Shown in pieces: positions 9,348-38,556 of a stretch of 40,901 nt of DNA. The notes beneath the pieces are model-generated. The model did no database searches. It saw only the letters and a program-made list of their open reading frames with translations, and was not told where the DNA came from. Position 1 is the first letter of the stretch. The number at the start of each line of letters is the position of its first letter. Location: the UHGV virus genome UHGV-1629914. The stretch is one strand, 5' to 3'. This stretch comes from a virus. A program made the position numbers and the translations under genes.

Positions 9348-9364
9348 TTGTTGTTTGTTATGAT

Positions 9365-9415
9365 ATGTGATATGATGCAAAATGCATATTCATATTGTAT
9401 ATGAATATGATACAA
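9365..9415 (-). promoter_or_regulatory. class B conserved upstream element (about 50 bp)
   Basis: Near-identical copy at 14415-14470 (ATGATGCAAAATGCATATTCA ... GAATATGATACAACA on plus); both lie just upstream of replication genes. Confidence 0.5.
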
Positions 9416-13700: not shown

Positions 13701-14384
13701 GACATCTTTATCTCGTGCAACAAACAGTGGCTGACTAATTTTGCAAACGGATGCATCGACTACTCGAGATTCAGACATTTGTCCAGACTTTTCAAGTCGT
13801 CTTGACAACGTGTTATTTACAGGATGCACTTCTCGAGCCATGTCATGATTGCCCTCTGATTCAAGCTGGTCACTCAGCAACACAAGGCATTTCCAAATGA
13901 CATACAGTTTTGCTTCATATGCATCAAGATATGTTTTCTTTGCTGCAGAAGCATTTTCAGATGACACAAATACAGCGTCTTCAGTTTGAATTGACAGAGG
14001 CTTTGAGATTGTGTAGACGTGCAAGCCTGAACCAGAAGTTGACTTAAGCACAGCAACACACCACGGATATTTGCAAAGCATTGCAGCCAAACGTGGTTTG
14101 ATGATTTCTACGAGTTCTTTTGAATGGAAGTCCAAATCGACTGGCTGCAAGCCTGACCAAGTCAAGTAGTCATGAACTTGCTGTTTTGGTCGAGCAAACA
14201 TTGTCGATTGCGACACAAAGGGACGATGTGCTTTATCTACTGTGTCAAGTGACTCATCATTTGCAACTTTCATGATGAGGTCATACAATGAAATTTGTTG
14301 CTTATTGACAGTGTCTTCTGTTTTACGAACACTGTCGCCCATCATGAACTTTATGCCACTGAGCAAATCTTTGACGTTTGACAT
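10785..14384 (-). CDS. putative DNA primase-helicase (AEP-like primase motif plus SF2-type helicase motifs)
   Basis: 1199 aa: N-terminal KSTSGSGLHVYT (primase motif-II-like), then Walker A IARPGSGKTE, Walker B VVVDESHLL and TGTP motif III. Confidence 0.55.
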   Translation of the reverse strand: MSNVKDLLSGIKFMMGDSVRKTEDTVNKQQISLYDLIMKVANDESLDTVDKAHRPFVSQSTMFARPKQQVHDYLTWSGLQPVDLDFHSKELVEIIKPRLAAMLCKYPWCVAVLKSTSGSGLHVYTISKPLSIQTEDAVFVSSENASAAKKTYLDAYEAKLYVIWKCLVLLSDQLESEGNHDMAREVHPVNNTLSRRLEKSGQMSESRVVDASVCKISQPLFVARDKDVIINQNAQFIEQPEFDVSIYASVDAKFCIDKLKTMFDRLRGRFDYAPKSHMTAMTDGEQVFTQRDDITMIEEGTMLTITPQNYDNTGRYRLAYTLAFLYDLKSTTGGQYEHVLQMFLQMCSGNPKFNAEHNSWANSFRSAVERNAAGTCPCVWSSVKELREKHGFKFKFANKSSVTVNELIAEHNTEDAISQYIMSKVAQQKDFELRHTHVFKLAENEYLSTYKHELEEAFVTGINYLIARPGSGKTEFIKQLTRDGKRVMLIEPYTSILQSKIEMSDLGMYCSFGQRGLELSKHVNVALTFDKFTLADPEEVSILYDYVVVDESHLLTMSAYRDVVPANVIDNLTKLQTKVILMTGTPVAEHMFCHFDTVIFCDKPLNYNKGVRFVCCKHDGDKITKLASHISTAIKAGKRILFPTNKGDAFTHAIVGAVRMMLGRNPKVKYYKRDNAMHDFVQSINESGTIGDIELLFCTNYLSVGIDINDSYEFDVIYDEAFTGQEIEQFNSRLRKISIQSYVYFSMTKSNGDPRNITAYDELDLTLTNVEKLSFWDILQMQTKRNDSRSLFDFFEWAFNAPYFYRDPYTGEIKIHLTAYKLNMFEQKWRQWATQLVIIQNTLSSYGYECKVVQDVVADDMMIAQVLNAAKEARAEYRQEKNSKIGKMFASFVNQATFEVIMNLPAEQVQESDRFELVKKNGKLTYLVEDRRVFDDWRHALRTLSHHYLFDTIMKTIDMYVIDNKDMYRLARLKSIKDAVSIFDAGSSGTMHESNIKIVSYMLNDVFNNSKDAVSIASEVVDQIVKNSALIYFDSRGYTPQSPDVLDSVASIARRMFNAITVHDGDIYAIKQLPAFDSGYSRSRDSIAQMLHVLFTDDIFADNTERLLASAKLQSTISSLVFDKQQAEAQVSSGIISFKRVDIDNKFDDSNLTVIEDAPAKDLESPVSKADVEAEREAKRQKAATELERLADELMNRGF

Positions 14385-16797: not shown

Positions 16798-17049
16798 TTA
16801 ATTGTTGAGATACTGTTGAAGTTCTACTTCTGTTGCATGTCTGCATTGCTTAACATTGAACACTGTCATAGCATTGCAACTTTTGCATTTATGCCAAATT
16901 TCAGCTACTGCAGTTTGTTCGTTCTTTGGCAATGAACGTCTGTACTTGACAATATCTGTGGTACCGCAGTGTCTACAAGTACCAAGTACAACATACAGTT
17001 TTGAGTTAGTCGCGCTCAATTGTGACATGTCTAACTTCCGCTTCTTCAT
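16798..17049 (-). CDS. small zinc-ribbon-like protein (83 aa)
   Basis: Two CxxC pairs (CRHCG and CKSC); overlaps the downstream gene by about 44 nt. Confidence 0.4.
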   Translation of the reverse strand: MKKRKLDMSQLSATNSKLYVVLGTCRHCGTTDIVKYRRSLPKNEQTAVAEIWHKCKSCNAMTVFNVKQCRHATEVELQQYLNN

Positions 17050-18427
17050 AGCCGTGCTCTCTCAGTTTTTCAATGAGTGCTTCAACATCTGCTCGATAAG
17101 TATCGCGATTATCAGAACGTTCAACTATTTTGTACTCTTTCTTAAGTTCTACAATCTTTGCTTTTAGCTTTTTCTGCTCATCTTGAGTCAATCTACTAAC
17201 AGCAATTTCAAGAACTTTGTGATTGATTGAATGCTCATCAAGAATTGCTTTGACTTGCTTAGTTGTCATTTTATGCAGCACAATGACTTCATCAAGCACT
17301 AATTGAATGAACTTCATGATATCTTCATACCACTGAATTGTAGTACGAATGTCTTCAAGTCGTTTTTGCTTGCGAATTTCATAGAATTGCAAACGCCACT
17401 CGACAAATCGCATAATAAGTGAACCGACTGTTTTATATCGACGAATCTTGTCATCGAAGTCAATAACAGTCAAGTTGTCACGTTCAATTCTGCAGAACAT
17501 TGCAAGAGTCCAGTATAATGAATCTTTTGCAAGCAACTCAGCAAGTTTTGCTTTCGTAAACTTTATCTCATACAGAATCTTGTCTTTGTGAGAGTAATTT
17601 GTCCATGCTTCAATGATGTCGCGGTCAAGCAGCATATTGAGATGGTTTTCATAGCCATCGAATGTGTTATTGTATGGAATTGCAGTCACATTGACTGTGG
17701 TGTCATCAACAACTTCCATTCGACCATGATGCTCATATACACCATTGACAAGTCGCCATTCTCCTTGCAAGCCTTTGACATATGGCGTAATTTTACGTTC
17801 AGAAATATCTTCGCCATCAAGAGCATCAATAACAGCATTGCAAACTTCAATTGGATTACGATTGATAATTGTGCTTGAATAGCCAACCGCGATGCCCATA
17901 ATTGAGTTTAGCAAAATTGTGGGCACAATTGGCAGATAAAATTGCGGCTCAACCTCAATGCCCTCTTGCCAACGATTTGTAAGCAGCTCATTGTCTTTCA
18001 TGAGCAGCTCAAATGCATCTGATAATCGAACAAAGATGTATCGAGGCGCACCTGCATATGGGCTGTAGAACGTGCCAAATTGGCCTTCACCAATGAAATA
18101 TGGAATGTTCTGCTTAAAGTCCTGAGACATGATTGTGATATTGCCCTCAAGACTTGTCTGGCCATGTTCATAGCCGCCCTCTGCTTTCACATAACCCGCA
18201 AATGCACCTACAGTTTGCTTAACGCCGCCTTTAAGACGCTTAAGTGCAACATACATGATTTTTCGTGCAGTAGGCTTAAAGCCATCACGAACATCAGGTA
18301 TTGCACGTTCAAATGCTGTGTGTAATGCATACTCTTTATATCGAGTGTTCAAAAATTCCGCAATGGAAATTTGAATATCTTGTTCTGTCAATGGTTCTGT
18401 ATAGACTTCTTGTTTTCGTCGTGCCAT
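17006..18427 (-). CDS. type II DNA topoisomerase, DNA breakage-reunion subunit (GyrA/ParC-like N-terminal domain)
   Basis: ERAIPDVRDGFKPTARKIMYVALKR matches the GyrA signature. Start taken at the internal ATG (MARRKQ) because the class A motif at 18458-18486 lies inside the ORF-track extension. Confidence 0.85.
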   Translation of the reverse strand: MARRKQEVYTEPLTEQDIQISIAEFLNTRYKEYALHTAFERAIPDVRDGFKPTARKIMYVALKRLKGGVKQTVGAFAGYVKAEGGYEHGQTSLEGNITIMSQDFKQNIPYFIGEGQFGTFYSPYAGAPRYIFVRLSDAFELLMKDNELLTNRWQEGIEVEPQFYLPIVPTILLNSIMGIAVGYSSTIINRNPIEVCNAVIDALDGEDISERKITPYVKGLQGEWRLVNGVYEHHGRMEVVDDTTVNVTAIPYNNTFDGYENHLNMLLDRDIIEAWTNYSHKDKILYEIKFTKAKLAELLAKDSLYWTLAMFCRIERDNLTVIDFDDKIRRYKTVGSLIMRFVEWRLQFYEIRKQKRLEDIRTTIQWYEDIMKFIQLVLDEVIVLHKMTTKQVKAILDEHSINHKVLEIAVSRLTQDEQKKLKAKIVELKKEYKIVERSDNRDTYRADVEALIEKLREHGYEEAEVRHVTIERD

Positions 18428-18457
18428 TGTAGCTAATTTGATTTTATTTCCTATATT

Positions 18458-18486
18458 ATTGTACAACATGCAAAACGAGTTTGCAC
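18458..18486 (-). promoter_or_regulatory. class A promoter-like motif
   Basis: Coding strand reads GTGCAAACTCGTTTTGCATGTTGTACAAT, about 30 nt upstream of the ATG at 18427. Confidence 0.5.
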
Positions 18487-18507
18487 TGTTTTGATACAAC
18501 GATGTTG

Positions 18508-21876: not shown

Positions 21877-22707
21877 TTACGACTTCTTGCTTTCGCAACT
21901 TGTCGACATGTATGGGTTTATATTGTGAGTATTACAAAAATCTTTATACCATGCAATAAAGTCTGCAATTTGCTGTTTACATAAGTGCTTAAATTTATGC
22001 GCATCCCAATATTGAATACGATACACAGTGTAACCTATCGATGACATAAATATATCGCGCTTAGTATCTCGTTCAATGTGTTCTGGATATCTATGCTGTT
22101 TGCCGTCAATTTCAAGGTCTACATTGCCAGGCAATCTAAAATCAAGAAAATATACGCCATGTGCAGACGAATCATAATCTCGCTTATTTATACGATATTG
22201 AAACTCATATGCAATATGCTCAATGTCAAGTACACCTTTCCAATATGATTCTGCAAATGTTATAGTATTTCTTGCAGCCCACGGCTTATTTCGGCCATCC
22301 TCAAAAGATTTACGAACTTTATCACCTATCTTTTTACGAGTATTTTCTGAATGTCGTATATTATGACCAGCAGCAAACCATTTGTTATTGGCTTTATAAG
22401 TTTCATCGGCAAATAATTGTTTCATTCTATTTGACTGACGCTTACGTGCTGCAGAAGACCATTTGCCTTTGCCACCCTTACTTTCCTGATATTGACGTTT
22501 TTGTTCTGCACGTGTAGGCACTTTATGCGCACGTGCTAACTTATTATGTTTAGAACGTCCAGCAGCAACAAATGCTGCGTTCATTCTTTTACGTGTCTCA
22601 GGATGTTTTTTGTGATAATTGTTTTGCAACATTTGAATGTGCACACCAATTGCAACAAAATCTACCGCTGCCATATGTGCCATCATGTTCTTTTCCACAA
22701 TTTTCAC
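21877..22707 (-). CDS. freestanding homing-endonuclease-like protein (NUMOD3-like motifs plus C-terminal Vsr/DUF559-like PD-(D/E)xK-type domain)
   Basis: 276 aa with HPETRKRM and HSENTRKKIGDK (NUMOD3-like) and C-terminal VDLEIDGKQH ... GYTVYRIQYW resembling the Vsr/DUF559 core; sits between the tRNA cluster and the tmRNA candidate. Confidence 0.55.
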   Translation of the reverse strand: MKIVEKNMMAHMAAVDFVAIGVHIQMLQNNYHKKHPETRKRMNAAFVAAGRSKHNKLARAHKVPTRAEQKRQYQESKGGKGKWSSAARKRQSNRMKQLFADETYKANNKWFAAGHNIRHSENTRKKIGDKVRKSFEDGRNKPWAARNTITFAESYWKGVLDIEHIAYEFQYRINKRDYDSSAHGVYFLDFRLPGNVDLEIDGKQHRYPEHIERDTKRDIFMSSIGYTVYRIQYWDAHKFKHLCKQQIADFIAWYKDFCNTHNINPYMSTSCESKKS

Positions 22708-26232: not shown

Positions 26233-26527
26233 AATCTGTCAATATGAAACATCTAACAAGTTTTGAAACAAGTCGTCTATGACCCGTCTCAACTCGTATC
26301 ATATGCTTGGTGAATAGTGGCCCTGTTGCTGTTGCACAATGTCTGTCAAGGGCATTTAGTACTTTATTCATTGCAATCAATGGGTGCAAATGACTATTCG
26401 GCCAGCATTCTTCTGCAATGTATGTCAAAATGCCATCGCCATATGACACGACTGCGCATTTATCTGCAATAAGATGCTTCTTAGCAATCTCTGCAACTTT
26501 CTGTGTAGAACAACGCATTACAATCAA
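26207..26527 (-). CDS. hypothetical protein (106 aa)
   Basis: ORF-track frame; ATGA overlap with the topoisomerase gene stop at 26524-26527. Confidence 0.4.
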   Translation of the reverse strand: MIVMRCSTQKVAEIAKKHLIADKCAVVSYGDGILTYIAEECWPNSHLHPLIAMNKVLNALDRHCATATGPLFTKHMIRVETGHRRLVSKLVRCFILTDYENLHQIQ

Positions 26528-28518
26528 TCATCTGCAGCATCACCATCGAAGCCCATGAGTACTTTGCGTACATGTGCATTGCCGCCAAGCCATGCATTGA
26601 TTGCATCCCATGAGTCTTCTTTAGCGACCACTTGTTCGAGTACTGGCGCAGACATAATGTCTTCAAACTCTGTAGAAGTCAATGATGCAAGACCTTTCTT
26701 ATGATTGACTTCCCAGTCTTTGCTGCCATTGAATTTGTCTGCGACTTTATTGTAATCATCATAGAAGTAGAACTTTCGTTCTTCACCAGTTTTGCGATTG
26801 TTACAGATGATGATTGGCGTGACTACATTGTACACAAGGCCCATATCAAACAACTCTGGCCAGAACTTGTAGAAGAACAACTGCAGCAATGATGAAATGC
26901 TATAGCCATCGACATCTGCATCAGTCAAAATGCAAATCTTGCCATAGCGTAATTTGCGTGGGTCTGCTTTTTCATTGAATCGCAAACCAAGTGACTGCAT
27001 CAAACCTGCAATTTCAGGCTTTTCTATGAGTTTCTTTGGATTGTCATAGTAGCAATTGCCAATTGACTTACCACGAATACAGTAGAAGCCTTGGGTCAAT
27101 GCATTTCGATTGACTCGAATGCCTTGTGATGCAGAATCGCCTTCTACAATGAATAGCATGCATTCATTACGATTTGTCTTTTGTGCAGCATCTACAAGCT
27201 TATTGACATGAAACTGCTTTGTCTTGACTTCAAGTTTCTTATTGAGCTCCTTGGCTTCTTTGGCTTTCTCTTTCTCTTCTTCAATCTGTTTCTTGATTTT
27301 GCAGTCCATCAAGATGCGGTCAAGAATTTCAGTTTTTGTCAAGTACTTCTTGAGCTTATCTGAAATGAGAATTGGAAAGCCAAACTTTTGTGTTTTTGTA
27401 GCCAATTTGTCTTTGACCTGCGCATCGAATTCAGGATTGGGGATTTTCCACATCGACAAAATTGACATGTGCTTAAATACGTCTTTCTTTGCAGGTTCAA
27501 ACCCATATTTGTTTTTGATGTGACTAATCAAAAAGTCTGCGCATACATTCGCAATGAAGTCCATGTGCGTGCCATAGTCACATCGAATTGAGTTGACTAT
27601 GGCAAAACTTTCAAAGAAGCCTGCTCTACTTGGGCCAATCTCGAAACTGTAGTTCTCGTTTTCATCACCACGAAATTCTTTTGTGTGTTCCCACAAGTCT
27701 TTGTACTCCCAGAAGTGCTTGAACTTGAATTCATAGTTTTCGCCAGTAGCTTCATTGTGCCATTCAACTACAAGTGGATTGTTTACATCGCAGCCCATAA
27801 CTGCGACTTCGATTGCTCGTGACAGCCACTTATCTACTGTGTCATCTGGGATATGGTCAAGTGGCGCTGCATTAATCCACTCCCATCTGCCAAGGTCAAG
27901 ATGCGCCTCGATGTATGTAAAATGTTCAGACTTACGACATTTGCTGACTTTTGCATCATCATGTCGACCCATATTGTCATACCAGCAAATTTCAAGTTTT
28001 TTGCCATCTTTTGCTGTGATGACTTTGAATGACTTAGACATCACATTGACAAGTGATGCACCAAGCCCATTAGTACCAGACAATGCACCACGGTCAGCAA
28101 CAAAATTTGAACCAGACCTCAATGAGCCAAATACCATCTGCGGTATGTACTCATTGTATTCTGGATGCATCACTACAGGAATACCGCCGTTGTCCCATAC
28201 AGCAAGCTTGCCTGTTTTTGGATTGACTGTGACTGATATGCGATTGACTACTTCTTGTGCATGACTTTGAATGTTACGTTGACGCTCATCAAAACTATTA
28301 TTGATGCACTCATTAAACATTGTATTCAAGCCAATTGACTGATATGTGTCATAGACACGTCGAATCGGTCTTTCAGCATCTTCATATGGACGATACAACT
28401 CACATTCTTGTTCCGCAAGAAATTCGAGTGACCCAATGTACATACCAGGCTTCAGTAGACAATGCTCGCGCGATGAAAGTTTTTTGAATTTTTCTGTCAG
28501 ATTGTTTATGTCAGACAT
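26524..28518 (-). CDS. type II DNA topoisomerase, ATPase/Toprim subunit (GyrB/ParE-like)
   Basis: N-terminal EHCLLKPGMYIGS (GyrB signature) and Toprim motif FIVEGDSA. Start taken at the internal ATG (MSDINNL); the ORF-track start at 28632 appears to be a non-ATG codon upstream of the class A motif. Confidence 0.85.
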   Translation of the reverse strand: MSDINNLTEKFKKLSSREHCLLKPGMYIGSLEFLAEQECELYRPYEDAERPIRRVYDTYQSIGLNTMFNECINNSFDERQRNIQSHAQEVVNRISVTVNPKTGKLAVWDNGGIPVVMHPEYNEYIPQMVFGSLRSGSNFVADRGALSGTNGLGASLVNVMSKSFKVITAKDGKKLEICWYDNMGRHDDAKVSKCRKSEHFTYIEAHLDLGRWEWINAAPLDHIPDDTVDKWLSRAIEVAVMGCDVNNPLVVEWHNEATGENYEFKFKHFWEYKDLWEHTKEFRGDENENYSFEIGPSRAGFFESFAIVNSIRCDYGTHMDFIANVCADFLISHIKNKYGFEPAKKDVFKHMSILSMWKIPNPEFDAQVKDKLATKTQKFGFPILISDKLKKYLTKTEILDRILMDCKIKKQIEEEKEKAKEAKELNKKLEVKTKQFHVNKLVDAAQKTNRNECMLFIVEGDSASQGIRVNRNALTQGFYCIRGKSIGNCYYDNPKKLIEKPEIAGLMQSLGLRFNEKADPRKLRYGKICILTDADVDGYSISSLLQLFFYKFWPELFDMGLVYNVVTPIIICNNRKTGEERKFYFYDDYNKVADKFNGSKDWEVNHKKGLASLTSTEFEDIMSAPVLEQVVAKEDSWDAINAWLGGNAHVRKVLMGFDGDAADD

Positions 28519-28547
28519 GTCTGTAAATTGAGATGTTTGTATATGTA

Positions 28548-28576
28548 TATTGTACAACAAGAATGCAAAACTTGCA
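28548..28576 (-). promoter_or_regulatory. class A promoter-like motif
   Basis: Coding strand reads GTGCAAGTTTTGCATTCTTGTTGTACAAT, about 30 nt upstream of the topoisomerase ATG. Confidence 0.5.
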
Positions 28577-28594
28577 CTGAAAATATACACATTT

Positions 28595-29632
28595 TCACAT
28601 AGTTGCAAGCATAATGCCAAGCAGCACTGCAAGACATATCAAACCTATGCCAAGAACAATAAAGTCCAGTATAGAATACGTGTCATTAGACTGTTTAATA
28701 AGTAGTGATCGCAATTGATTCTTTGCAATGAATGCATTGATGTGCTCTGGCTTGCATACAGCACGATAGTAGAGTTCAAATACTCGTTTAGCAGATGGCA
28801 ATTTGCATGCAGTCAAATCTTTATCTTGCATTACAACACCAGTAATGTACTTAATGTCATGCAGCTCAATGTCTGAACAACGACGCTTTGCTGCAAACTC
28901 AAATGCTTGTTTGACAATTTTTGAGCACTCTGCTGTAGTACATTGCTGAAATGCTGCGCAAAACTCTGCATAAGTACTACAGTCATTTTGCAGATGCAAC
29001 GCAACAGACGATTTCAGCATTGCTTCTGTTAAGTATTTTGGCAACTTGCACAAAATTTTGACATATCTGCACTTGTCATCTGTCACATGCACGTAGCCAG
29101 ATACTGCAAGCATTCTAACATATCGAACAAGTTCTCTATGCTGTAGCACTGTGCGCAATATGACGTTGTTTTGCAGCAAAATCTCATTGTCAACTGTGCA
29201 GTTAAGTGGCAATGTGTTGTATGCTACTTTAAGATACGATAACTTCGTTAATTGTTGTAAGCCATCATAGCCAACAAAATCTGCTGGCACAATCAGTGGC
29301 AGACTGGCAACGACTTGTCGATTATTTCTGTCAACAATTGTGATTGCTGGGTTTTGCAAGTCAAGCACAGATTTTGAACAAAACACTTGCATTGTGTCTT
29401 GAACTATGACAAATCCAAAGTTCTTGTGCAATTGCATATTGCATGTACGAGCTTCTGCTGCGCTAATTGTTGCAATGGGCAACTGTTTGTCGCTACACAC
29501 ATGCATCGGAGTTGACCATATTGGGTCAGCTCTCAATACAAGCACATGTTTGTTGCAGTCATATATTGCAGCAAAATCTGCAAGATTGCTGATGCTTCTT
29601 AAAGTAGTGTTACAAATCCCATTCATATGCAT
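28595..29632 (-). CDS. hypothetical protein with C-terminal transmembrane anchor (start uncertain)
   Basis: ORF 28595..29848 overlaps ORF 29610..30443 in another frame, so an internal ATG near 29632 is the more likely start; C-terminus ILDFIVLGIGLICLAVLLGIMLATM is hydrophobic. Confidence 0.4.
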   Translation of the reverse strand: MHMNGICNTTLRSISNLADFAAIYDCNKHVLVLRADPIWSTPMHVCSDKQLPIATISAAEARTCNMQLHKNFGFVIVQDTMQVFCSKSVLDLQNPAITIVDRNNRQVVASLPLIVPADFVGYDGLQQLTKLSYLKVAYNTLPLNCTVDNEILLQNNVILRTVLQHRELVRYVRMLAVSGYVHVTDDKCRYVKILCKLPKYLTEAMLKSSVALHLQNDCSTYAEFCAAFQQCTTAECSKIVKQAFEFAAKRRCSDIELHDIKYITGVVMQDKDLTACKLPSAKRVFELYYRAVCKPEHINAFIAKNQLRSLLIKQSNDTYSILDFIVLGIGLICLAVLLGIMLATM

Positions 29633-31142: not shown

Positions 31143-31868
31143 ATGCCAGCAGTCAATCGCGGGGGGGCTCTTCGTGCTCCTATCACTACTATTGATGTCA
31201 GACTGTATGACTACGATATGCCGACAAAGGCATACACAACTGGGACTCATAGCATCGTAGTATACTATGATGGCGGAATTGTTGCAAATGGCAACACACA
31301 AAATGGGCGTTGGTACTCATCTCAACTTCAGCTTCAGCAATCAAAGGGCGCAGTTATCACTATAGCATTGCAAGATGCAAGCATTAGCAGCGTTGGTTGT
31401 GCTACTGTGTCATTTTACGCAGATGACGCAAAGATACAAAATGGCACTATACACGTCAAACTATATTGTCGTACACAATATGCGTTTGTATGGCCACAAG
31501 CATACATGACTCAGTATGTGAATGATTTAATGTATGCTGTTTGTGTAGAGCCAAATGACATAAGCTTTAATACATCTGCTTTTGTCAATTTTTGCGGCTG
31601 CGGTCAAGCATTGATGGACAACTTTAATGGAGAACTCTGGGATAATGGCTATTCAATTGAAGACACTGACATTATGCAAGATGACGCAGACGAATGGTGG
31701 CTAATGATTAGTAATAACAGTGCAGAATTCCCATACACTGTCATAGCATCAAACATTCCGAAAGAGTCTATGGCATCTGGACTTGCAGCTTTTCTGCAAA
31801 GTGCTGGTGTTGGCCGTGTTTTCTATGTACAAGCATTGCAACTTGGTGAACTTGTAAGTTCATTTTAG
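31143..31868 (+). CDS. hypothetical protein (241 aa), the only plus-strand gene in the window
   Basis: ATG-initiated ORF opposite to all neighbours, preceded by an AT-rich divergent region and followed by a bidirectional terminator; a G7 tract lies in its first codons. Confidence 0.5.
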   Translation: MPAVNRGGALRAPITTIDVRLYDYDMPTKAYTTGTHSIVVYYDGGIVANGNTQNGRWYSSQLQLQQSKGAVITIALQDASISSVGCATVSFYADDAKIQNGTIHVKLYCRTQYAFVWPQAYMTQYVNDLMYAVCVEPNDISFNTSAFVNFCGCGQALMDNFNGELWDNGYSIEDTDIMQDDADEWWLMISNNSAEFPYTVIASNIPKESMASGLAAFLQSAGVGRVFYVQALQLGELVSSF

Positions 31869-31943: not shown

Positions 31944-34900
31944 TTAGAACAGAGCAATGATGTTGTCGACAAACATAAAGCATGCATGTAGCAATTCAGC
32001 TGTCGGCGCCATCTCATATGCTTTGCCATCATACATAAATCGCACAGTGACAATTGGTGATACTTCGTCTTTGAATGCAAGTACTGGAACGTCTACACCT
32101 GCAGTCAATTGCACTTCAACGTCCTTGTCAGCTGCTACATCTTTAGCAATCACTGTGATATCTTGACAACGACCTGCAGCCACTGCATATCGAACATTTG
32201 TCAATGCTGCAGACATATCAACAAGAGCTTGCATGATTTGCTGTTGAGTAAATTGCTCGACTGACTTCTTTGCAGCCTTGACTGCTTCGATATCTTGCGT
32301 ATTTGCAAGAATCAATGCTACCACTGCAGGGTCAGAAGTAGTCCACCAACGGCCATCAATTGCAAGCCACAGTCGATTGCCATTGACGTCAATTGCATAT
32401 GCATATTGAGTGTTTGGTGCCAATGTGACTTTTCGAGTGTTCTTTAAGAACTCTGCTGCATCAGGAGCTGCAACAATGTTCTTGACAAATGACGGCAGCA
32501 TTTCAGCTTCAAATGTTTGTGTAGCTTCAAAGACACCGCCACGTGCATCGTCATCAATTCTGCCTGCAAAGCGTTTGCAGATTTGAATGATTGTAGACAT
32601 GCCTACTGTTGGAACGACTTGACGTTTCATTGCAGGCATTTGCAGAGGCATTATATCTTGCGCAATGTACAATGATGTCGCATCAACAGTGTCAAGTACT
32701 CGTGCAATGTCAGCAATGTCAACAATTACAAACCAGTCGCCATCATGGCAGACAATGAGTTGCTTGCTGTCATTTGCATATGTCAGCAATACTGCAATGT
32801 CATTTTTGATTGAGATTGCAGGAATCCATGCTTGTTGCAGAGGCAAGTCAAGATTTGGTGTGCCGCATGGATAAAGCGCAGATGGCTGCATAATTGAGCG
32901 GCAATCAAAACCTATTGAACTTACAAGCTGCAGAACTTCGCCACGAATGCAAGCATTACTTTGATTCTGTGTCATGTCATATGCAAGCCAACTGCAAATT
33001 GCTTTGATTGATGACACTGGAAATGCTACGCCAATTGTGCTGTACGCAATCTTGCCGTCTGCTGACAATGACTCATCAACTGCAATGCCAGCATCATTGA
33101 ACAATGACATATCAATTGAACAATGGAATTCGCCACCAGGCATTGGACCTGCAGCAATGCCATAGCCAGAACCAAGTGACAGCCATTCTTTCATTGCATC
33201 TGAATTGTATGACGAGAACTTGTACAACACATATGACTTATGCGGGTCACTAACTGACTTACGAATCTCCATCTTGGCGCCTGCTTTCTTTGCAATTGCT
33301 TTAATGTTATCGGCGTGCTTCTTTGCCTCAGACTTGTCAAATTTGCCTTCATCAAGTTGAGCAATCTTGCCAAGCGCATAAGCAGTCCATGCAATTGACA
33401 ATTGATTCAGTGCACCAACTTCTGACCACGACTTTTCTGCAAACCATGAACCAAGACCAGATTTGTCAAGAGTTTCTTTGCGTTCAGCTTTTGTTGTGCT
33501 GTCCCACCACTTGCCAGTCGCAGGCAATACAATGTCTTTGATTTGCTCCTTACGAAGCTCATTGACGCCGATTTTGCCTTCATGAACATGCGCATTTGCA
33601 TGATATGCTCTAAGAGCAGCCAACGCGGCATCATATGAGTCATAGTCTTGCGGCCAGAATTCCCCATTCTTGCCAATGATGCCCCATACGCCCTTTGACT
33701 TTTCTTGGATGACAGAGTCTTTGTCACCGGCAGCTTCATTGACAAATGCCGTGTTAAGATATGCAATGACATGCTGAAGCTCTTTGTCGTCTGTAGACTC
33801 ATTGACGTTCTTAGCGTAATCACCAAGAATTGATTCAACTTTGCCACGCAAATTGCTTGGCATATCATCAAGGTCAAGATTGCCATACTTCGTAACTTCT
33901 GGTTGAGACAATCCAAGCAATTTCAACACCTTATCACGGTACTTGTTTGCAAGCTTCTTCCAAATCCAGCGGAATGTTACAGCGCCAATCAAGAATTTGA
34001 TGAGGCCCTCATCAAGTACATGTTGTTCACGCAAATATGCTGTAATGCATGAACGTTGACCATCAGTCAAGTCAACCCACATTTTATCAAGCAATATTGA
34101 ATCTGGGTTGCTTGCAATGCCTGCGCCGCTGCGGTTGTACACATTCATTCTGTCAATTGCTGGTGTTGCGTCATTGTCCCACCAAGCTTGTGCATATAAA
34201 CATCCAGCAGGATTTGAGATTGCCTCATCAATGTACATGACATTGAAAATTTCGCAAAGACGCTTGCGACATTCAGGTGACATAACTTGCCATTGTGCTG
34301 CAATTTTGTCTTCTGACCACTGCAACAGCATGTCTGCAAATTCTTTACCTGCACATTGCTCAACTGCGCCATGTTTCGAACGCCAATAATTGTCAGGCTC
34401 AATCTGCGCAATTGCATGAACAAATGAAGTCAGATTGTATGACGCAGATTCGCAAATGCAATGCTGTTCAATGTAGCTACGAACAGCAAGTGCAGTGTTT
34501 TCCGGCAAGTTGCTATATGGTGACTCATAGATGTTTGCTTGCTGATTGAGCATATGTGGAGCAACTTCTGCAATGATTTGTTTGCGAACATTCAATGGCC
34601 ATGCATTCCATGAAGATTCTACAGATTCATCAAGATGCATGCCAATTGCATCCATAACTGCATCAGCATCTTTGCCCGACAGTTCGTCAAACAATTTGTC
34701 TACTACTGCATAATCATATCGCAAATTTGGCTGAGCCTTTGCAAGAGCGTCCATCATTGCTTTGCGTTCTTGTTTTGACGCATTATTCCATGTGCCAGCA
34801 TACAATTCTGCTGTCGCGCTTTCACAGACAATATCTGCAGCAGCATATGCTTGCTTCATAATGTCCATGAAGATTGACTTCATTTTTGGATGCATCACAT

Positions 34901-35150
34901 GATACTTTTCATTGTAGATGTCAAGTACGCCATAAACATCTTTCAATGGTCGAATGCTTTCTGATGAGCCGAATGATGGCTTCAAAATTGAATTGCATAC
35001 ACGTTCAACGGTGCCACGCATAAACTTGACATCACTTCGCTTGTCACTGATAGACATAAATGCATCAATGACAGACTTGATAATGTCATCTGCAGCTTCA
35101 TTAACAAAGCCTACTGGTCGACCGCCAAACTTGTTCGTTTGTGTTGTCAT
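31944..35150 (-). CDS. large hypothetical protein (1068 aa)
   Basis: Long uninterrupted ATG-initiated ORF; no polymerase, helicase or nuclease motif recognised by eye. Confidence 0.6.
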   Translation of the reverse strand: MTTQTNKFGGRPVGFVNEAADDIIKSVIDAFMSISDKRSDVKFMRGTVERVCNSILKPSFGSSESIRPLKDVYGVLDIYNEKYHVMHPKMKSIFMDIMKQAYAAADIVCESATAELYAGTWNNASKQERKAMMDALAKAQPNLRYDYAVVDKLFDELSGKDADAVMDAIGMHLDESVESSWNAWPLNVRKQIIAEVAPHMLNQQANIYESPYSNLPENTALAVRSYIEQHCICESASYNLTSFVHAIAQIEPDNYWRSKHGAVEQCAGKEFADMLLQWSEDKIAAQWQVMSPECRKRLCEIFNVMYIDEAISNPAGCLYAQAWWDNDATPAIDRMNVYNRSGAGIASNPDSILLDKMWVDLTDGQRSCITAYLREQHVLDEGLIKFLIGAVTFRWIWKKLANKYRDKVLKLLGLSQPEVTKYGNLDLDDMPSNLRGKVESILGDYAKNVNESTDDKELQHVIAYLNTAFVNEAAGDKDSVIQEKSKGVWGIIGKNGEFWPQDYDSYDAALAALRAYHANAHVHEGKIGVNELRKEQIKDIVLPATGKWWDSTTKAERKETLDKSGLGSWFAEKSWSEVGALNQLSIAWTAYALGKIAQLDEGKFDKSEAKKHADNIKAIAKKAGAKMEIRKSVSDPHKSYVLYKFSSYNSDAMKEWLSLGSGYGIAAGPMPGGEFHCSIDMSLFNDAGIAVDESLSADGKIAYSTIGVAFPVSSIKAICSWLAYDMTQNQSNACIRGEVLQLVSSIGFDCRSIMQPSALYPCGTPNLDLPLQQAWIPAISIKNDIAVLLTYANDSKQLIVCHDGDWFVIVDIADIARVLDTVDATSLYIAQDIMPLQMPAMKRQVVPTVGMSTIIQICKRFAGRIDDDARGGVFEATQTFEAEMLPSFVKNIVAAPDAAEFLKNTRKVTLAPNTQYAYAIDVNGNRLWLAIDGRWWTTSDPAVVALILANTQDIEAVKAAKKSVEQFTQQQIMQALVDMSAALTNVRYAVAAGRCQDITVIAKDVAADKDVEVQLTAGVDVPVLAFKDEVSPIVTVRFMYDGKAYEMAPTAELLHACFMFVDNIIALF

Positions 35151-35265: not shown

Positions 35266-38200
35266 TCAGTTACATGCTGAATGTCCACAGTTGGTGCATC
35301 GAACACAGCCATCAAACTTGACCATATCACCACCACATTCAGGGCACTTTGCATACATTTTTGAGCCATCTTGAATATGCAGTTTCAATGCACGACCAAT
35401 TGCTTTGCAGAATGTTCCGACAGATGCAAAGCTTTTTGCAGTTTGGTCGACAATTTCGCCGAGGTCAATACCATTGCGAAGCATCGTTGAGTACAGTCGA
35501 GTAATTGTCTGCTGCTCATCTGAACCAAGACGTTCTGAGATATTGTCATAGTGCTGCAAGAATGACAAATTATCACTAAGCTTGTAGTGTTTCTTATCAG
35601 TCTTTGTGATTGTCGTTTGTTCAATGCCTTGCAACTTGTCGAATTCATCTTTGTCAAGTTCAAATGCAAAGATTTCATAAGGTCGACCGTCATCACAGCC
35701 TACAAGAATACACCACTTGCGCTTATACACTGACACGCAATACACTGCAGCAGGCAATACTGGTTTTCGTTTTGAGCGATGACCAGATTGCAAGATGTGC
35801 GACTTGTCTTTTGACTGCTTGTCATCTTTTACGAGAACACCTGCACGTGAGCCGTCTCGATAAATTGTGCAGCCCTTGCAGCCAGATTTCCATGCAGTCA
35901 TATAAATTTCACGAACGAGTTCTTTTGTTGCAGAGTTTGGAATGTTGACCGTTACAGAAATTGACGAGTCAATGTATTTTTGCAATGCACCTTGCAGTTT
36001 CACCTTGCCAATCCAGTCAACATCTTCAGTAGTTGCCTTGTAGTATGGTGATTGAACAAGCAACTCATCAATGACTGCTTGCGGAGCATTTGATAACCAA
36101 GCTTTGATGCGAGACATTTCTGCTTCTGACCATTCAATGCCAGTATCTTTGACAAGAGTAAATTTGCCATCGCCAAGCTGCACTCGTTTACAAATCCACT
36201 GCATCAATGGATAATGAACTACAGCATATTCAATGAACTTATCGCCAGTAGTCTCATCAATGAAGTTGATGTCAGCTTCATTATCAACTGCAGTAGGCTT
36301 TCGACGACGTTTGTGCAGTGGCATAAAGACGGGCTCAATACCAGACGTCGTCTGAGTCATCAAAGCTGTAGTGCCTGTTGGCGCAATTGTGGTCGTGTTG
36401 ATGTTTCGACGACCAAATTGCTGATAAGTTTTGATGTGCTCATCATCAATCAGTTCAGATAGCATACGCTGGACGAACTTTGACTGCACATCTGTGTCAT
36501 AGTCAAATATTGCAAATGAGCCGCGAATCTTTGCCAAGTCAATTGATGCTTCATAAGTAGCCTTTACAAGCCATTGCTGCATAGTGACTGCGAAGTCAAT
36601 TGACTCTTGTGAACCATAGCGTAAGCCAAGCATCGCCATTGCATCGCCAAGTGCAAGGAAGCCCATACCATATCGACGAGTATTTGTCAGTTTGTCATAG
36701 ACTTTGTGCCACAAGTCAAGTTCAGTCTTTTTGATGTCAAAGTCTTCTTTGTCTGACCGTACCTTTGCAATGATTCGTTGCACTGCTTCAATTTCAAGCT
36801 GTACAAGGTCATCCATGATGACTGCGCAATCATACGTGTCTTTATAGAATGTCTCAAAGTCAAATGACGCATCAGCAGTCCAAGGATTAAGCACGTATGC
36901 AGTCAAATTGCGATGTGACAAAATGCAGCTTGCATATGCTGCAAGAGGTTGTTCACCACAATTTAATGTATTGACGACTTGCTTGTCATTGACTGCAATA
37001 AAGAAATTGTGGAAGTCTTCTACTGTACCATTGTACACATCTGCTTTGTTCATGTGACGTGTTGCGACAACTTTGACAATTGCATCACCAGTAGTGTCAA
37101 TGTCTGCATATTTGCTGTAGTCACCTAACGCTGCGCAAGCATCACAGCAATACGCTTGTTCACGATTGTCATAAGAAACTTCGAATTCTTTACCACAATA
37201 TTCGCATCGTTTAATGACTGTGTTTCGTTCTGTTTTTACAAGTTCGTCAGTCTTCAATGCAATTGATAGCTTATCTGTGCTTGGCATATCAATTGCCCAC
37301 AATGAGTCATTTGTTGCAAGGTCAATTGCATACTTGAAATCGCCATTAGCAAGTCTAAACTCATGATTTGCTGTACAATTGATGACATGACCATCATCAA
37401 GCACAATCTGAATGATTTGTGCATTGTGTGCAGTCAATCTTGGTCGACGCATTGTACGCACAACAAGCTTGCCATTAGCGTCAAGACAATACACTGGAAT
37501 GTCTTCGCCGTTATCAGCAAGCTCTTTGAATGTCTTCAAACCTGAGCCATCAGCAACAAGCACTTTTGTATCACCTGTGAAGCATGGATTTGTTGAGCGC
37601 TCTTCATACATTTTGCCATATGCTTTCGAGTTCGACTCTTCCATAATGCGGTCCCAGAAGAACACACCAGGTTCTGCAGATGCCCATACATTATCAACAA
37701 TTTTGTCGAACAATGCTTTTGCATCTGATGTCTTATGCAGCTCTTGGCCATCAGAGCCACGCCAAACATGCTCAAACTGTTGTTCTGCAAGTACTGCACG
37801 CATAAATGCATCAGTAAGCTTGATAGAAATGTTTGCGCCTGTGATTTTCGTCAAGTCTTTTTTTGCGTCAATGAACTTATCTGCGTCAGGATGCTCAATT
37901 GACAATGACAACATCAATGCACCACGCCTGCCATTTTGTGCAACTTCTTTTGTTGATGTTGAAAAGCGTTCCATAAATGACACTACACCAGAAGTTGTAA
38001 CAGCACTGTTATGCACTTCTACGCCTTCTGGGCGAATATGTGACAAATCATGGCCAACACCACCACGACGCTTCATCAACTGAACTTGCTCTTCATCTGT
38101 TTTGAAGATGCCGCCATATGAGTCTGCATCATTGCCTATTACGTAGCAATTTGACATTGATGTGTAACCGCCAAGACCAATACCAGCCATTGGAGAACCA

Positions 38201-38487
38201 CCAAGTACAAATCGCTTAAATGGCTCAAGCAAATATGCAAGTCGCTCTTTTGACAATACACGTTTGCCTGTCTGTTCTTCAAATTGTGATTCTATACGGT
38301 CAAATTCATTGACCCAGCGTTCATGCATGTCAGACAATGAGTGTTCATACAGATTGTCTTTGTCGTGATGCAAGTATTTTGACATGCATATGTCAGCAGC
38401 CATTGAATCACCTGTAAATTCATGTGTCAGTGCAGTATGCACTTCGGCATATTCAGGCGACCCAATTTGAATGGGATGTTTTGTCAT
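35266..38487 (-). CDS. ribonucleotide reductase catalytic subunit (class II-like NPCGEQ site) interrupted by an intein
   Basis: NPC / GEQPL active-site motif split by an inserted block; C-terminal Cys cluster CPECGG ... CVRCTNCGHSAC. Start taken at the internal ATG (MTKHPIQ), about 45 nt downstream of a class A motif. Confidence 0.75.
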   Translation of the reverse strand: MTKHPIQIGSPEYAEVHTALTHEFTGDSMAADICMSKYLHHDKDNLYEHSLSDMHERWVNEFDRIESQFEEQTGKRVLSKERLAYLLEPFKRFVLGGSPMAGIGLGGYTSMSNCYVIGNDADSYGGIFKTDEEQVQLMKRRGGVGHDLSHIRPEGVEVHNSAVTTSGVVSFMERFSTSTKEVAQNGRRGALMLSLSIEHPDADKFIDAKKDLTKITGANISIKLTDAFMRAVLAEQQFEHVWRGSDGQELHKTSDAKALFDKIVDNVWASAEPGVFFWDRIMEESNSKAYGKMYEERSTNPCFTGDTKVLVADGSGLKTFKELADNGEDIPVYCLDANGKLVVRTMRRPRLTAHNAQIIQIVLDDGHVINCTANHEFRLANGDFKYAIDLATNDSLWAIDMPSTDKLSIALKTDELVKTERNTVIKRCEYCGKEFEVSYDNREQAYCCDACAALGDYSKYADIDTTGDAIVKVVATRHMNKADVYNGTVEDFHNFFIAVNDKQVVNTLNCGEQPLAAYASCILSHRNLTAYVLNPWTADASFDFETFYKDTYDCAVIMDDLVQLEIEAVQRIIAKVRSDKEDFDIKKTELDLWHKVYDKLTNTRRYGMGFLALGDAMAMLGLRYGSQESIDFAVTMQQWLVKATYEASIDLAKIRGSFAIFDYDTDVQSKFVQRMLSELIDDEHIKTYQQFGRRNINTTTIAPTGTTALMTQTTSGIEPVFMPLHKRRRKPTAVDNEADINFIDETTGDKFIEYAVVHYPLMQWICKRVQLGDGKFTLVKDTGIEWSEAEMSRIKAWLSNAPQAVIDELLVQSPYYKATTEDVDWIGKVKLQGALQKYIDSSISVTVNIPNSATKELVREIYMTAWKSGCKGCTIYRDGSRAGVLVKDDKQSKDKSHILQSGHRSKRKPVLPAAVYCVSVYKRKWCILVGCDDGRPYEIFAFELDKDEFDKLQGIEQTTITKTDKKHYKLSDNLSFLQHYDNISERLGSDEQQTITRLYSTMLRNGIDLGEIVDQTAKSFASVGTFCKAIGRALKLHIQDGSKMYAKCPECGGDMVKFDGCVRCTNCGHSACN
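36961..37584 (-). mobile_element. intein (about 208 aa) within the ribonucleotide reductase
   Basis: Begins CFTGDTKVLV (intein block A) right after ...STNP; ends VEDFHNFFIAVNDKQVVNTLN with terminal Asn followed by extein Cys (CGEQPL). Carries a CEYCGKEF ... CCDAC zinc-ribbon-like insert; no LAGLIDADG or HNH block seen. Confidence 0.6.
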
Positions 38488-38528
38488 TGTAACAGTGCAT
38501 TTAAGTGTTTTAACTGTTTTATGTATAA

Positions 38529-38556
38529 ATTGTACAACAATGCGCAAAATTTTGCA
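38529..38556 (-). promoter_or_regulatory. class A promoter-like motif
   Basis: Coding strand reads TGCAAAATTTTGCGCATTGTTGTACAAT, upstream of the reductase ATG. Confidence 0.5.

What the first reader, a model, noticed from the sequence alone, without database searches (positions are those of the whole stretch)
35266..38487. Intein in the ribonucleotide reductase active-site region, carrying a zinc ribbon instead of an endonuclease domain
The active-site motif is split as ...STNP | CFTGDTKVLV ... NTLN | CGEQPL.... The inserted block of about 208 aa (36961-37584) starts with Cys in an intein block-A context and ends with Asn followed by extein Cys, with VEDFHNF resembling block F. Inside it is CEYCGKEF...CCDAC rather than a LAGLIDADG or HNH module. 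Splicing would restore a contiguous NPCGEQ motif.
Basis: partly seen in the sequence, partly recalled or inferred. Interest (0 to 1): 0.6.

Follow-up and report, generated by a model that had tools for sequence, protein, structure and literature searches.

The report
Nuclease-less RNR intein keeping a zinc finger
A phage B12-dependent ribonucleotide reductase gene is interrupted, just before its catalytic cysteine, by a 208-residue self-splicing intein that has lost its HNH homing nuclease but kept that nuclease's small zinc finger, a reduced layout that recurs in many uncultured relatives and that I did not find described.

Summary
The gene lies on the minus strand at 35266-38487 and encodes a 1073-aa class II reductase (NrdJ). 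It carries a 208-aa in-frame block at 36961-37584, between ...STNP and CGEQPL. The block is a class-1 intein:
- It passes an intein N-terminal profile.
- Its predicted Hint fold matches solved inteins.
- It has Cys1, a TxxH block B, a terminal Asn and a +1 Cys.
- Removing it in silico gives a protein that passes the NrdJ equivalog model in one stretch.

The interpretation needs refining. The Cys4 motif is not a substitute for an endonuclease. It is the surviving middle module of a composite HNH homing endonuclease. A phage with a 93-96% identical host gene carries, at the same site, a 463-aa family member with HNH_3, the same finger and a further module.

I extracted 156 family inteins at this site, and 139 keep the finger. 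Twenty-two, including this one, have lost both flanking modules, apparently many separate times.

The finger looks like an FCS-type or treble-clef finger, not a classical zinc ribbon. It is under purifying selection (omega about 0.1), and its ligands are invariant. Its present role is not settled: it may be structural, DNA-binding or regulatory. This is a new variant of a known kind, of moderate interest.

The parts
35266..38487 (-). nrdJ gene (adenosylcobalamin-dependent ribonucleotide reductase) including the intein; 1073 codons plus a stop at 35266-35268
   Evidence: ORF list and translation. Pfam Ribonuc_red_lgC E 3e-75. The spliced sequence passes TIGR02504 NrdJ_Z, 468.9 bits against 399.95.
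37585..38487 (-). N-extein, residues 1-301, ending ...ERSTNP
   Evidence: Translation. 95-96% nucleotide identity to L002 and L004. dN/dS 0.044 against L004.
36961..37584 (-). Intein, 208 aa (protein residues 302-509), from Cys1 to Asn208
   Evidence: profiles. AlphaFold2 mean pLDDT 89.7, pTM 0.85. Foldseek probability 1.00 to the Ssp DnaB, Npu DnaE, Mtu RecA and NrdJ-1 inteins.
37285..37584 (-). N-terminal splicing half of the Hint domain (intein residues 1-100), with block A starting at Cys1
   Evidence: TIGR01445 covers residues 1-77. It matches inteins in other phage reductases, terminases and helicases over residues 1-100.
37363..37374 (-). Block B motif T71-A-N-H74 (TxxH)
   Evidence: T71 and H74 are invariant in the 22-sequence alignment of reduced inteins, A1.
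37222..37284 (-). Linker 1 (intein residues 101-121). It occupies the place of the ~218-aa HNH-containing segment of full-length relatives.
   Evidence: Lowest-confidence stretch of the model, pLDDT 61 for residues 101-110. The segment before the finger is 28 aa here and about 218 aa in full-length members.
37126..37221 (-). Cys4 zinc-finger domain (intein residues 122-153). The ligands C127, C130, C146 and C150 lie in 37135-37206. It is FCS-type or treble-clef-like.
37084..37125 (-). Linker 2 (intein residues 154-167). It occupies the place of the ~88-aa module that follows the finger in full-length relatives.
   Evidence: The segment after the finger is 20 aa here and about 88 aa in full-length members. 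It is the most variable stretch among 16 population variants, 36% of sites.
36961..37083 (-). C-terminal splicing half (intein residues 168-208): block F VYNGTVEDFHNF and block G ...VVNTLN, with a terminal Asn and a penultimate Leu
   Evidence: V183, Y184, G186, T187 and H192 are invariant. Family-wide the last residue is Asn in 78 and Gln in 78 inteins, and the penultimate residue is His in only 1 of 156.
36958..36960 (-). +1 Cys of the C-extein, the Cys of the NPCGE motif (thiyl-radical cysteine of the reductase)
   Evidence: Sequence. Its identity as the radical site comes from Dassa et al. 2009 (PMC2677866) and from established knowledge of RNR motifs.
35269..36957 (-). Rest of the C-extein (residues 511-1073), including the reductase's own C-terminal Cys4 finger at 35269-35346
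   Evidence: Translation. dN/dS 0.03 against L004.

Best explanation
This is a splicing-competent class-1 mini-intein in a phage nrdJ gene, inserted directly before the catalytic Cys.

**Mechanism (inferred from the canonical pathway).**
1. The precursor folds its Hint domain.
2. Cys1 makes the N-S acyl shift.
3. The +1 Cys, the reductase's own radical cysteine, takes over the N-extein.
4. Asn208 cyclises and releases the intein.
5. An S-N shift leaves a contiguous ...STNPCGEQPL... reductase.

**Origin (shown by comparison).** The intein belongs to a large, mostly metagenomic family specific to this site. Its full-length members are about 475 aa and have this layout: N-splice, ~218 aa with an HNH_3 nuclease, an FCS-type Cys4 finger, an ~88-aa module, C-splice. 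The window's intein has lost both modules flanking the finger. It therefore cannot cleave DNA or home on its own. It persists by vertical descent, and only a precise deletion could remove it.

**The finger (partly shown, partly inferred).**
- Shown: it is still under selection.
- Inferred: it was most likely the DNA-binding or positioning module of the ancestral endonuclease.
- My best guess for why it survives: it now acts as a folded, zinc-stabilised bridge between the two Hint halves, and losing it would disturb splicing of an essential enzyme.
For: **It is an intein.**
- Profiles.
- Hint-fold model at pLDDT 89.7, with probability 1.00 and target-normalised TM 0.74-0.82 to solved inteins.
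- C1, T71, H74 and block F invariant.
- 86 of 120 homologues have a contiguous NPCGE.
- The spliced product passes TIGR02504 in one stretch.

**It derives from an HNH-plus-finger intein.**
- P0002 has 93-96% identical exteins at nucleotide level and a 463-aa intein at the same site. That intein scores Intein_splicing 67.9 bits and HNH_3 34.3 bits, both above their cut-offs. It carries the same CEHCGSEF...YCSAEC finger.
- 139 of 156 family inteins carry the finger.
- The inteins fall into four states: full 94, segment before the finger lost 5, segment after it lost 6, both lost 22.
- Reduced forms are scattered over a neighbour-joining tree, with Fitch parsimony giving >=12 changes. Many have a full-length nearest neighbour.

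**Selection.**
- Against L004, dN/dS is 0.08 for the whole intein, 0.12 for residues 101-165 (12 synonymous, 7 non-synonymous differences), about 0.09 for the finger and 0.03-0.04 for the exteins.
- In 16 population variants the four ligands, E128, R141 and E142 never change.

**Site.** The position directly N-terminal to the thiyl-radical Cys is the most frequent intein site in class I and II reductases (PMC2677866).
Against: - Splicing was not observed.
- Block G is atypical, with a penultimate Leu instead of His. The block F position that is usually Asp is Asn here. No intein C-terminal profile matched, and Pfam PF14890 falls 1.8 bits short of its cut-off.
- These block G traits are family-wide, and inteins without a penultimate His, or ending in Gln, are reported to splice (references listed in PMC4031507).
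- The structural-bridge idea is weakened by P0251. This is a 178-aa family member with no finger at all. P0228 also has a degenerate second ligand pair.
- The finger has about twice the variable-site density of the splicing blocks, 19% against 10-12%.
- The family sample is biased toward finger-bearing inteins. It is the top 150 hits of a query that contains the finger.
- The neighbour-joining tree rests on 186 columns and has no support values.
- dN/dS for the finger alone rests on 11 differences.
Confidence: 0.8

Rival explanations
1. The finger is a functionless relic. Deletions removed the nuclease segments, and the 30-residue finger simply has not decayed yet. Its apparent conservation reflects short divergence times and search bias.
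For: - A fingerless family member (P0251) and a degenerate one (P0228) exist.
- The finger varies faster than the splicing blocks.
- The sample is enriched for finger-bearing hits because the query contained the finger.
Against: - Twenty-two reduced inteins at <=50% mutual identity keep all ligands plus E128 and R141.
- Two separate deletions flank the finger, and intermediates of both kinds exist.
- Omega is about 0.1 for the central region.
- No ligand changes in 16 population variants.
Confidence: 0.2
2. The finger has acquired a role of its own in nuclease-less inteins. It might bind the homing-site DNA, for example to assist a nuclease supplied in trans by co-infecting phages that carry the full-length allele. 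Or it might make splicing, and so reductase activation, depend on zinc or redox state.
For: - Purifying selection without a nuclease.
- Repeated independent retention.
- Full-length and reduced alleles coexist in one phage lineage.
- Zinc fingers act in DNA binding in the HNH endonuclease I-TevIII and as a distance determinant in I-TevI (PMC1865063).
Against: - There is no direct evidence.
- Constraint through splicing efficiency explains the same data more simply.
- A finger-free relative exists.
- An intein-occupied allele gains nothing obvious from binding its own disrupted target.
Confidence: 0.15
3. The block is a native reductase insertion or a dead intein, and the gene is not functional.
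For: Atypical block G, and Pfam Intein_splicing slightly below its cut-off.
Against: - Intein-free homologues are contiguous at this exact point.
- Hint fold.
- TIGR01445 is passed.
- Strong purifying selection on exteins and intein.
- The same 1073-aa protein recurs on dozens of contigs of up to 177 kb.
Confidence: 0.02

Closest known systems
Contiguous inteins at the reductase site directly N-terminal to the thiyl-radical Cys, described as the most frequent intein site in class I and II RNRs (Dassa et al. 2009, PMC2677866)
   Same: Same insertion point (NP|CGE), the same use of the catalytic Cys as the +1 nucleophile, and a class-1 Hint splicing domain.
   Different: The GenBank phage examples I read have other insert types, and none has the Cys4 finger:
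- Dickeya LIMEstone1 NrdA, Synechococcus S-CBWM1 NrdA and the uncultured phage LR756501 carry an HNH-type insert and end in ...VHN or ...VKN.
- Thermus phage G20c carries a LAGLIDADG-type insert and ends in ...SGN.
HNH_3-type homing-endonuclease inteins (first noted by Dalgaard et al. 1997; gyrase B and dCTP deaminase inteins form group 22 of the His-Me finger classification, PMC5714182)
   Same: Full-length relatives of this intein, such as P0002 and P0005, carry an in-frame HNH_3 domain between the splicing halves.
   Different: The window's intein has no HNH domain. I found no description of the FCS-type finger and the ~88-aa module after it as parts of HNH inteins.
Modular phage homing endonucleases with zinc fingers: I-TevIII (HNH plus two fingers that bind DNA, encoded in the nrdB intron) and I-TevI (a finger acting as distance determinant) (PMC1865063)
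   Same: A nuclease domain tethered to a small zinc finger, targeting a ribonucleotide reductase gene of a phage.
   Different: Those are intron-encoded free proteins. I-TevIII's fingers are CX2CX12-13HX3C. Here the finger sits inside an intein and survives without the nuclease.
Natural mini-inteins (for example the Ssp DnaB mini, Npu DnaE, Mtu RecA splicing domain and NrdJ-1 structures: 6frg, 4kl5, 2imz, 8ubs)
   Same: Same Hint fold, target-normalised TM 0.74-0.82. No nuclease.
   Different: Those have only a short linker or a split site where the endonuclease was. This one keeps a folded Cys4 domain there. The best solved and viral models cover only about 0.6 of the query.
FCS-type zinc fingers (Pfam zf-FCS PF06467; L3MBTL2 finger 2w0t), part of the treble-clef group
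   Different: Scores are below the Pfam cut-off (18.9 against 22.4), and only 10 of 101 family fingers hit zf-FCS at E<=0.01. The window's own finger reads YCCDAC rather than FCSxxC.

Membership tests
Intein (class 1, Hint superfamily) | N-terminal nucleophile (Cys or Ser) as first residue, in block A | tested here: met
   Cys1 in CFTGDTKV follows STNP directly. C1 is invariant in A1.
Intein (class 1, Hint superfamily) | Block B TxxH | tested here: met
   T71-A-N-H74. Both are invariant in 22 reduced relatives.
Intein (class 1, Hint superfamily) | C-terminal Asn (or Gln) followed by a Cys, Ser or Thr +1 residue | tested here: met
   ...NTLN208 | C. In the family, 78 inteins end in Asn and 78 in Gln, all followed by Cys.
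Intein (class 1, Hint superfamily) | Penultimate His (G:6), a common assisting residue that is not obligatory | tested here: not met
   It is Leu207 here, and His in only 1 of 156 family members. Splicing without this His is reported (Chen, Benner and Perler 2000, listed in PMC4031507).
Intein (class 1, Hint superfamily) | Curated profile match | tested here: met
   TIGR01445 intein_Nterm scores 46.3 against 24.5. Pfam PF14890 scores 34.0 against 35.8, just below. No C-terminal intein profile hit.
Intein (class 1, Hint superfamily) | Hint fold | tested here: met
   This rests on a predicted model: pLDDT 89.7, and Foldseek probability 1.00 to more than 40 solved inteins.
Intein (class 1, Hint superfamily) | In-frame insertion at a conserved host site, absent from homologues; removal restores the host protein | tested here: met
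   86 of 120 homologues have a contiguous NPCGE. The spliced sequence passes TIGR02504 in one stretch.
Intein (class 1, Hint superfamily) | Protein splicing activity | not testable with these tools
   Inferred only, from purifying selection on a gene whose active site is interrupted.
HNH homing-endonuclease intein | HNH (His-Me finger) nuclease domain between the splicing halves | tested here: not met
   No HNH family appears among the Pfam hits at E<=1 for the 208-aa block. Only 28 aa lie between the N-splice half and the finger. The sister allele P0002 does meet this feature, with HNH_3 at 34.3 against 24.8.
LAGLIDADG homing-endonuclease intein | LAGLIDADG domain(s) | tested here: not met
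   No LAGLIDADG endonuclease family among the Pfam hits. Hom_end_hint appears only at E 0.035 over residues 1-15. There is no room for such a domain in 208 aa.
FCS-type / treble-clef zinc finger | Four zinc ligands, CX2C ... CX3C, with the second pair at a helix start | tested here: met
   C127, C130, C146 and C150. The model shows strands 10-14 and 21-25 followed by a helix from residue 36 of the 52-aa segment.
FCS-type / treble-clef zinc finger | Profile or fold match above threshold | tested here: inconclusive
FCS-type / treble-clef zinc finger | Zinc binding | not testable with these tools
   Needs metal analysis.
Classical zinc ribbon | Two zinc knuckles on beta-hairpins forming a three-stranded sheet | tested here: not met
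   In both models the second Cys pair lies at the start of a helix. Pfam Zn_ribbon_8 scores only 13.4 bits against 34.4.
Class II ribonucleotide reductase (NrdJ) | Equivalog profile and NPCGE active-site motif | tested here: met
   TIGR02504 scores 468.9 against 399.95 on the spliced sequence. Homologues are annotated as vitamin B12-dependent RNR.

The most novel reading that the evidence does not exclude
The FCS-type finger has been co-opted in nuclease-less inteins as a working part. It would act either as a zinc- or redox-sensitive switch that makes maturation of the phage reductase conditional, or as a DNA-binding handle that lets a reduced intein use an HNH nuclease supplied in trans by co-circulating full-length alleles.
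Probability: 0.12. Interest if true: 0.75.

Novelty: new variant of a known kind. Interest (0 to 1): 0.45.

Why it matters
Inteins in reductase active sites are well known. Mini-inteins are usually described as bare splicing domains left behind once the homing endonuclease has decayed.

Here the decay seems to stop repeatedly at the same point. The nuclease and a downstream module go, and a 30-residue zinc finger stays and remains under selection. That has three consequences:

- It gives a defined anatomy for a large, essentially uncultured HNH intein family: HNH, FCS finger, third module.
- It shows that different intein alleles of one site turn over within a single phage lineage.
- It raises a testable question: does a non-nuclease part of a homing endonuclease contribute to splicing, to DNA targeting, or to conditional activation of an essential enzyme?

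A natural mini-intein with a built-in metal site could also be useful as a controllable splicing tool.

Tried and rejected
- **Word-indexed protein search with the 208-aa intein alone.** It found nothing. That was a limit of the index, not absence: the exhaustive HMMER scan found 2738 relatives.
- **tblastn of the finger plus C-half against 50,697 GenBank phage records.** Both the window's segment and a more typical family member gave only marginal hits, E>=0.01. The P0002 full-length intein matched only through its N-splice and HNH parts.
- **Reading the matched phage inteins.** LIMEstone1, S-CBWM1, LR756501, G20c and CL131 all belong to other intein types without the finger.
- **PDB sequence profile search with the finger alignment.** Only weak, non-diagnostic hits: the archaeal AlaRS N-terminus, C2H2 fingers and L24e.
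- **Co-conversion tracts.** I looked at the extein flanks between the window and L002. Differences are spread evenly, so there is no clear signal.
- **In-situ deletion from the L002 intein.** Rejected. The two inteins are only 50% identical in the N-splice block, while their exteins are about 95% identical at nucleotide level. They are separate family members.
- **AlphaFold database fold library.** Not available. BFVD showed no model that matches the Hint domain and the finger together.
- **Literature.** Four of six full-text searches were aimed at zinc fingers or zinc ribbons in inteins, and none found a description of a zinc-finger-only mini-intein.
Full report
**1. What is in the sequence**

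The feature lies on the minus strand. The ORF list gives 35266..38547 (-). The ATG at 38487 yields a 1073-aa protein starting MTKHPIQIG, the same start as its closest database relatives.

Pfam finds the ribonucleotide reductase barrel domain across residues 112-876 (E 3e-75), with an Intein_splicing match inside it. The block runs CFTGDTKVLV...VVNTLN, is preceded by ...ERSTNP and is followed by CGEQPL. It contains CEYCGKEF...YCCDAC at intein residues 127-150 and VEDFHNF at 188-194.

**2. It is an intein**

- **Profiles.** The block passes NCBIfam's intein N-terminal model (46.3 bits, cut-off 24.5). It falls 1.8 bits short of Pfam's Intein_splicing cut-off.
- **Relatives.** An exhaustive HMMER scan of 1.84 billion representative proteins found 2738 relatives at E<=0.001 and 852 at E<=1e-10.
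- **Fold.** An AlphaFold2 model built on 22 reduced relatives has mean pLDDT 89.7 and pTM 0.85. It matches solved inteins (Ssp DnaB, Npu DnaE, Mtu RecA, the NrdJ-1 split intein) with Foldseek probability 1.00 and target-normalised TM 0.74-0.82.
- **Catalytic residues.** Cys1, Thr71/His74 (block B) and the block F residues are invariant in the alignment. The last residue is Asn and the next is Cys.
- **Host protein.** Of the 120 best reductase homologues, 86 have a contiguous NPCGE. So does the closest GenBank phage relative, at 44% identity. Deleting the block in silico gives an 865-aa protein that passes the NrdJ equivalog model TIGR02504 in a single stretch (468.9 bits, cut-off 399.95).
- **Site.** The position directly N-terminal to the thiyl-radical cysteine is described as the most frequent intein site in class I and II reductases (PMC2677866).

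Block G is atypical, with a penultimate Leu rather than His. This holds for the whole family. Among 156 inteins extracted at this site, the last residue is Asn in 78 and Gln in 78, and the penultimate residue is His in one. Splicing without the penultimate His, and with a C-terminal Gln, has been reported (references listed in PMC4031507).

**3. What the zinc motif really is**

The decisive evidence came from the closest relatives:

- **P0001** is 98% identical and has the same 208-aa intein.
- **P0002** comes from a 181-kb contig (L002). Its exteins are 93-96% identical to the window at nucleotide level. At the same site it carries a 463-aa intein. That intein passes Pfam Intein_splicing (67.9 bits) and HNH_3 (34.3 bits, cut-off 24.8). 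Downstream of the HNH domain it has the same finger, ICEHCGSEF...YCSAEC.
- **Saprospiraceae reductases**, such as P0005, have the same layout.

I extracted 156 family inteins at NP|CGE from the 270 retrieved proteins. The finger is present in 139 of them.

The full-length form is about 475 aa. It consists of the N-splice half (~98 aa), a ~218-aa segment with the HNH domain, the finger, an ~88-aa module, and the C-splice half. For 138 finger-bearing inteins I measured the segments before and after the finger, which gives four states:

| State | Count |
|---|---|
| Both flanking segments present | 94 |
| Only the segment before the finger lost | 5 (plus partial cases) |
| Only the segment after the finger lost | 6 |
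| Both lost | 22 |

The window's intein is in the last group, with 28 aa before the finger and 20 aa after it. So the finger is not there instead of an endonuclease. It is the middle module of a composite HNH endonuclease, left standing after two separate deletions.

**4. The fold of the finger**

Both the whole-intein model and a separate model of the 52-residue segment (101-sequence alignment, pLDDT 81, core >=90) give the same picture. There is a beta-hairpin with the CX2C knuckle, then a helix whose start carries the second Cys pair. That is treble-clef-like, not a two-knuckle zinc ribbon.

- Pfam's best family is zf-FCS, at 18.9 bits against a cut-off of 22.4. Among 101 family fingers, 10 hit zf-FCS and 10 hit the VATC treble-clef family at E<=0.01.
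- Most family members read (F/Y)CSxxC at the second pair. The window has YCCDAC.

Membership of the FCS family is therefore plausible but below threshold.

**5. Is the finger still constrained?**

Three lines of evidence say yes, moderately.

- **dN/dS against the 93-96% identical allele L004 (Nei-Gojobori).**

| Region | dN/dS |
|---|---|
| Exteins | 0.03-0.04 |
| Whole intein | 0.08 |
| Intein residues 101-165 | 0.12 (12 synonymous, 7 non-synonymous differences) |
| Finger | about 0.09 (7 synonymous, 4 non-synonymous) |

- **Population variants.** In 16 distinct variants of this protein, the four ligands, E128, R141 and E142 never change. Variable-site density is 19% in the finger, 10-12% in the splicing blocks, 8-9% in the exteins and 36% in the linker after the finger.
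- **Reduced relatives.** In the 22 reduced inteins, which are <=50% identical to each other, C127, E128, C130, R141 and C146 are invariant and C150 is >=90% conserved. These reduced forms are scattered on a neighbour-joining tree of the shared blocks, with Fitch parsimony giving >=12 changes. Many have a full-length intein as nearest neighbour.

Caveats:
- The tree has 186 columns and no support values.
- The sample is the top 150 hits of a query that contains the finger, so it is biased toward finger-bearing inteins.
- A 178-aa family member without any finger (P0251) and one with a degenerate second ligand pair (P0228) exist. The finger is therefore not indispensable for the family.

**6. 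Intein turnover in one phage lineage**

Three alleles were found:

- The window and L004 share the reduced intein.
- L002 and L003 carry the full-length HNH form in a ~95% identical gene. The two inteins are only 50% identical in the N-splice block, so one is not an in-situ deletion of the other.
- P0003, whose reductase is 69% identical, carries a reduced intein of a different family that ends ...LVHN and has no finger. P0079 carries that family's HNH-bearing form.

No intein-free allele appeared among close relatives. I saw no clear co-conversion tract in the flanks.

**7. How it most likely works**

The inferred mechanism is canonical class-1 splicing. Cys1 and the reductase's own catalytic Cys act as nucleophiles, Asn208 cyclises, and an active NrdJ is released.

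Without a nuclease the element cannot home. It is inherited vertically and is hard to lose, because only a precise deletion restores the active site.

The finger was most likely the DNA-binding or positioning module of the ancestral HNH enzyme. Zinc fingers have these roles in the phage homing endonucleases I-TevIII and I-TevI (PMC1865063).

Why it persists is not shown. My preferred reading is that it is now a folded bridge between the Hint halves, and that disrupting it would impair splicing of an essential enzyme. The alternatives are a slowly decaying relic, or a new role in DNA binding or conditional splicing.

**8. Context and novelty**

The window is a replication and nucleotide-metabolism module of a large uncultured phage (related contigs 176-181 kb). 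It encodes:

- an NAD-dependent ligase;
- topoisomerase II subunits;
- a clamp-loader-like ATPase;
- a 5'-3' exonuclease.

The finger-bearing intein family has no member among 50,697 GenBank phage records. No BFVD viral model reproduces the Hint domain together with the finger. Four of six full-text literature searches were aimed at zinc fingers or zinc ribbons in inteins, and none found a description of a zinc-finger-only mini-intein or of this three-module HNH intein layout.

**Verdict.** The intein itself and its site are ordinary. The retained-finger architecture and its recurrence make this a new variant of a known kind, of moderate interest.

Noticed in passing
window 21877-22707 (-): This 276-aa ORF matches Pfam DUF559, a Vsr-like endonuclease fold, at 22.8 bits against a cut-off of 20.6. 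It may be a free-standing homing endonuclease in the replication module.
   Followed up: no
window 35269-35346 (-): The reductase ends in its own Cys4 motif, CPECGGDMVKFDGCVRCTNCGHSACN. This belongs to the extein and is unrelated to the intein finger. Most homologues retrieved have a similar C-terminal motif.
   Followed up: partly
L002 10001-13987, the nrdJ gene of a 181-kb contig (protein P0002): A near-identical phage gene (93-96% nucleotide identity in the exteins) carries a different, 463-aa intein with HNH and finger at the same site. The two inteins are only 50% identical in the N-splice block. This is intein allele turnover within one lineage.
   Followed up: yes
P0003 and P0079 (reductase homologues; the window protein is 69% identical to P0003 and 38% to P0079): A second, unrelated intein family occupies the same NP|CGE site. 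It ends ...LVHN, has no Cys4 finger, and also comes in a reduced form and an HNH-bearing form. The Dickeya LIMEstone1 and Synechococcus S-CBWM1 NrdA inteins belong to this type.
   Followed up: partly
156 family inteins extracted from proteins P0001-P0270: The C-terminal residue is split exactly 78 Asn to 78 Gln. The penultimate residue is Leu, Arg or Lys in most and His in 1 of 156. The block F position that is usually Asp is mostly Asn (VYNGTV).
   Followed up: partly
finger alignment A2 against PDB entries 2ztg and 3wqy: The finger profile weakly matches the extreme N-terminus of archaeal alanyl-tRNA synthetases ([23 protein letters not shown], E about 1e-3). This may be the same finger type. 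It is unexplained.
   Followed up: no
window 10785-14384 (-) and 31944-35150 (-): Two very large ORFs (1199 and 1068 aa) in the replication module have no Pfam or PHROG match. The second is conserved next to nrdJ in L002 and L004.
   Followed up: no
window 31143-31868 (+): This is the only sizeable plus-strand gene in the region (241 aa). It is conserved in the same opposite orientation in L002 and L004. Its only hit is a sub-threshold match to a CorA-like copper-binding domain (21.1 bits against 27).
   Followed up: no
window 2440-4344, 5793-7136, 8373-9380, 17006-18499, 26524-28632 (all -): These ORFs encode an NAD-dependent DNA ligase, a 5'-3' exonuclease, a clamp-loader-like AAA ATPase and two topoisomerase II subunits. 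The window is the replication module of a large phage whose reductase is closest to those of crAss-like and Bacteroides phages and gut Bacteroidota.
   Followed up: partly
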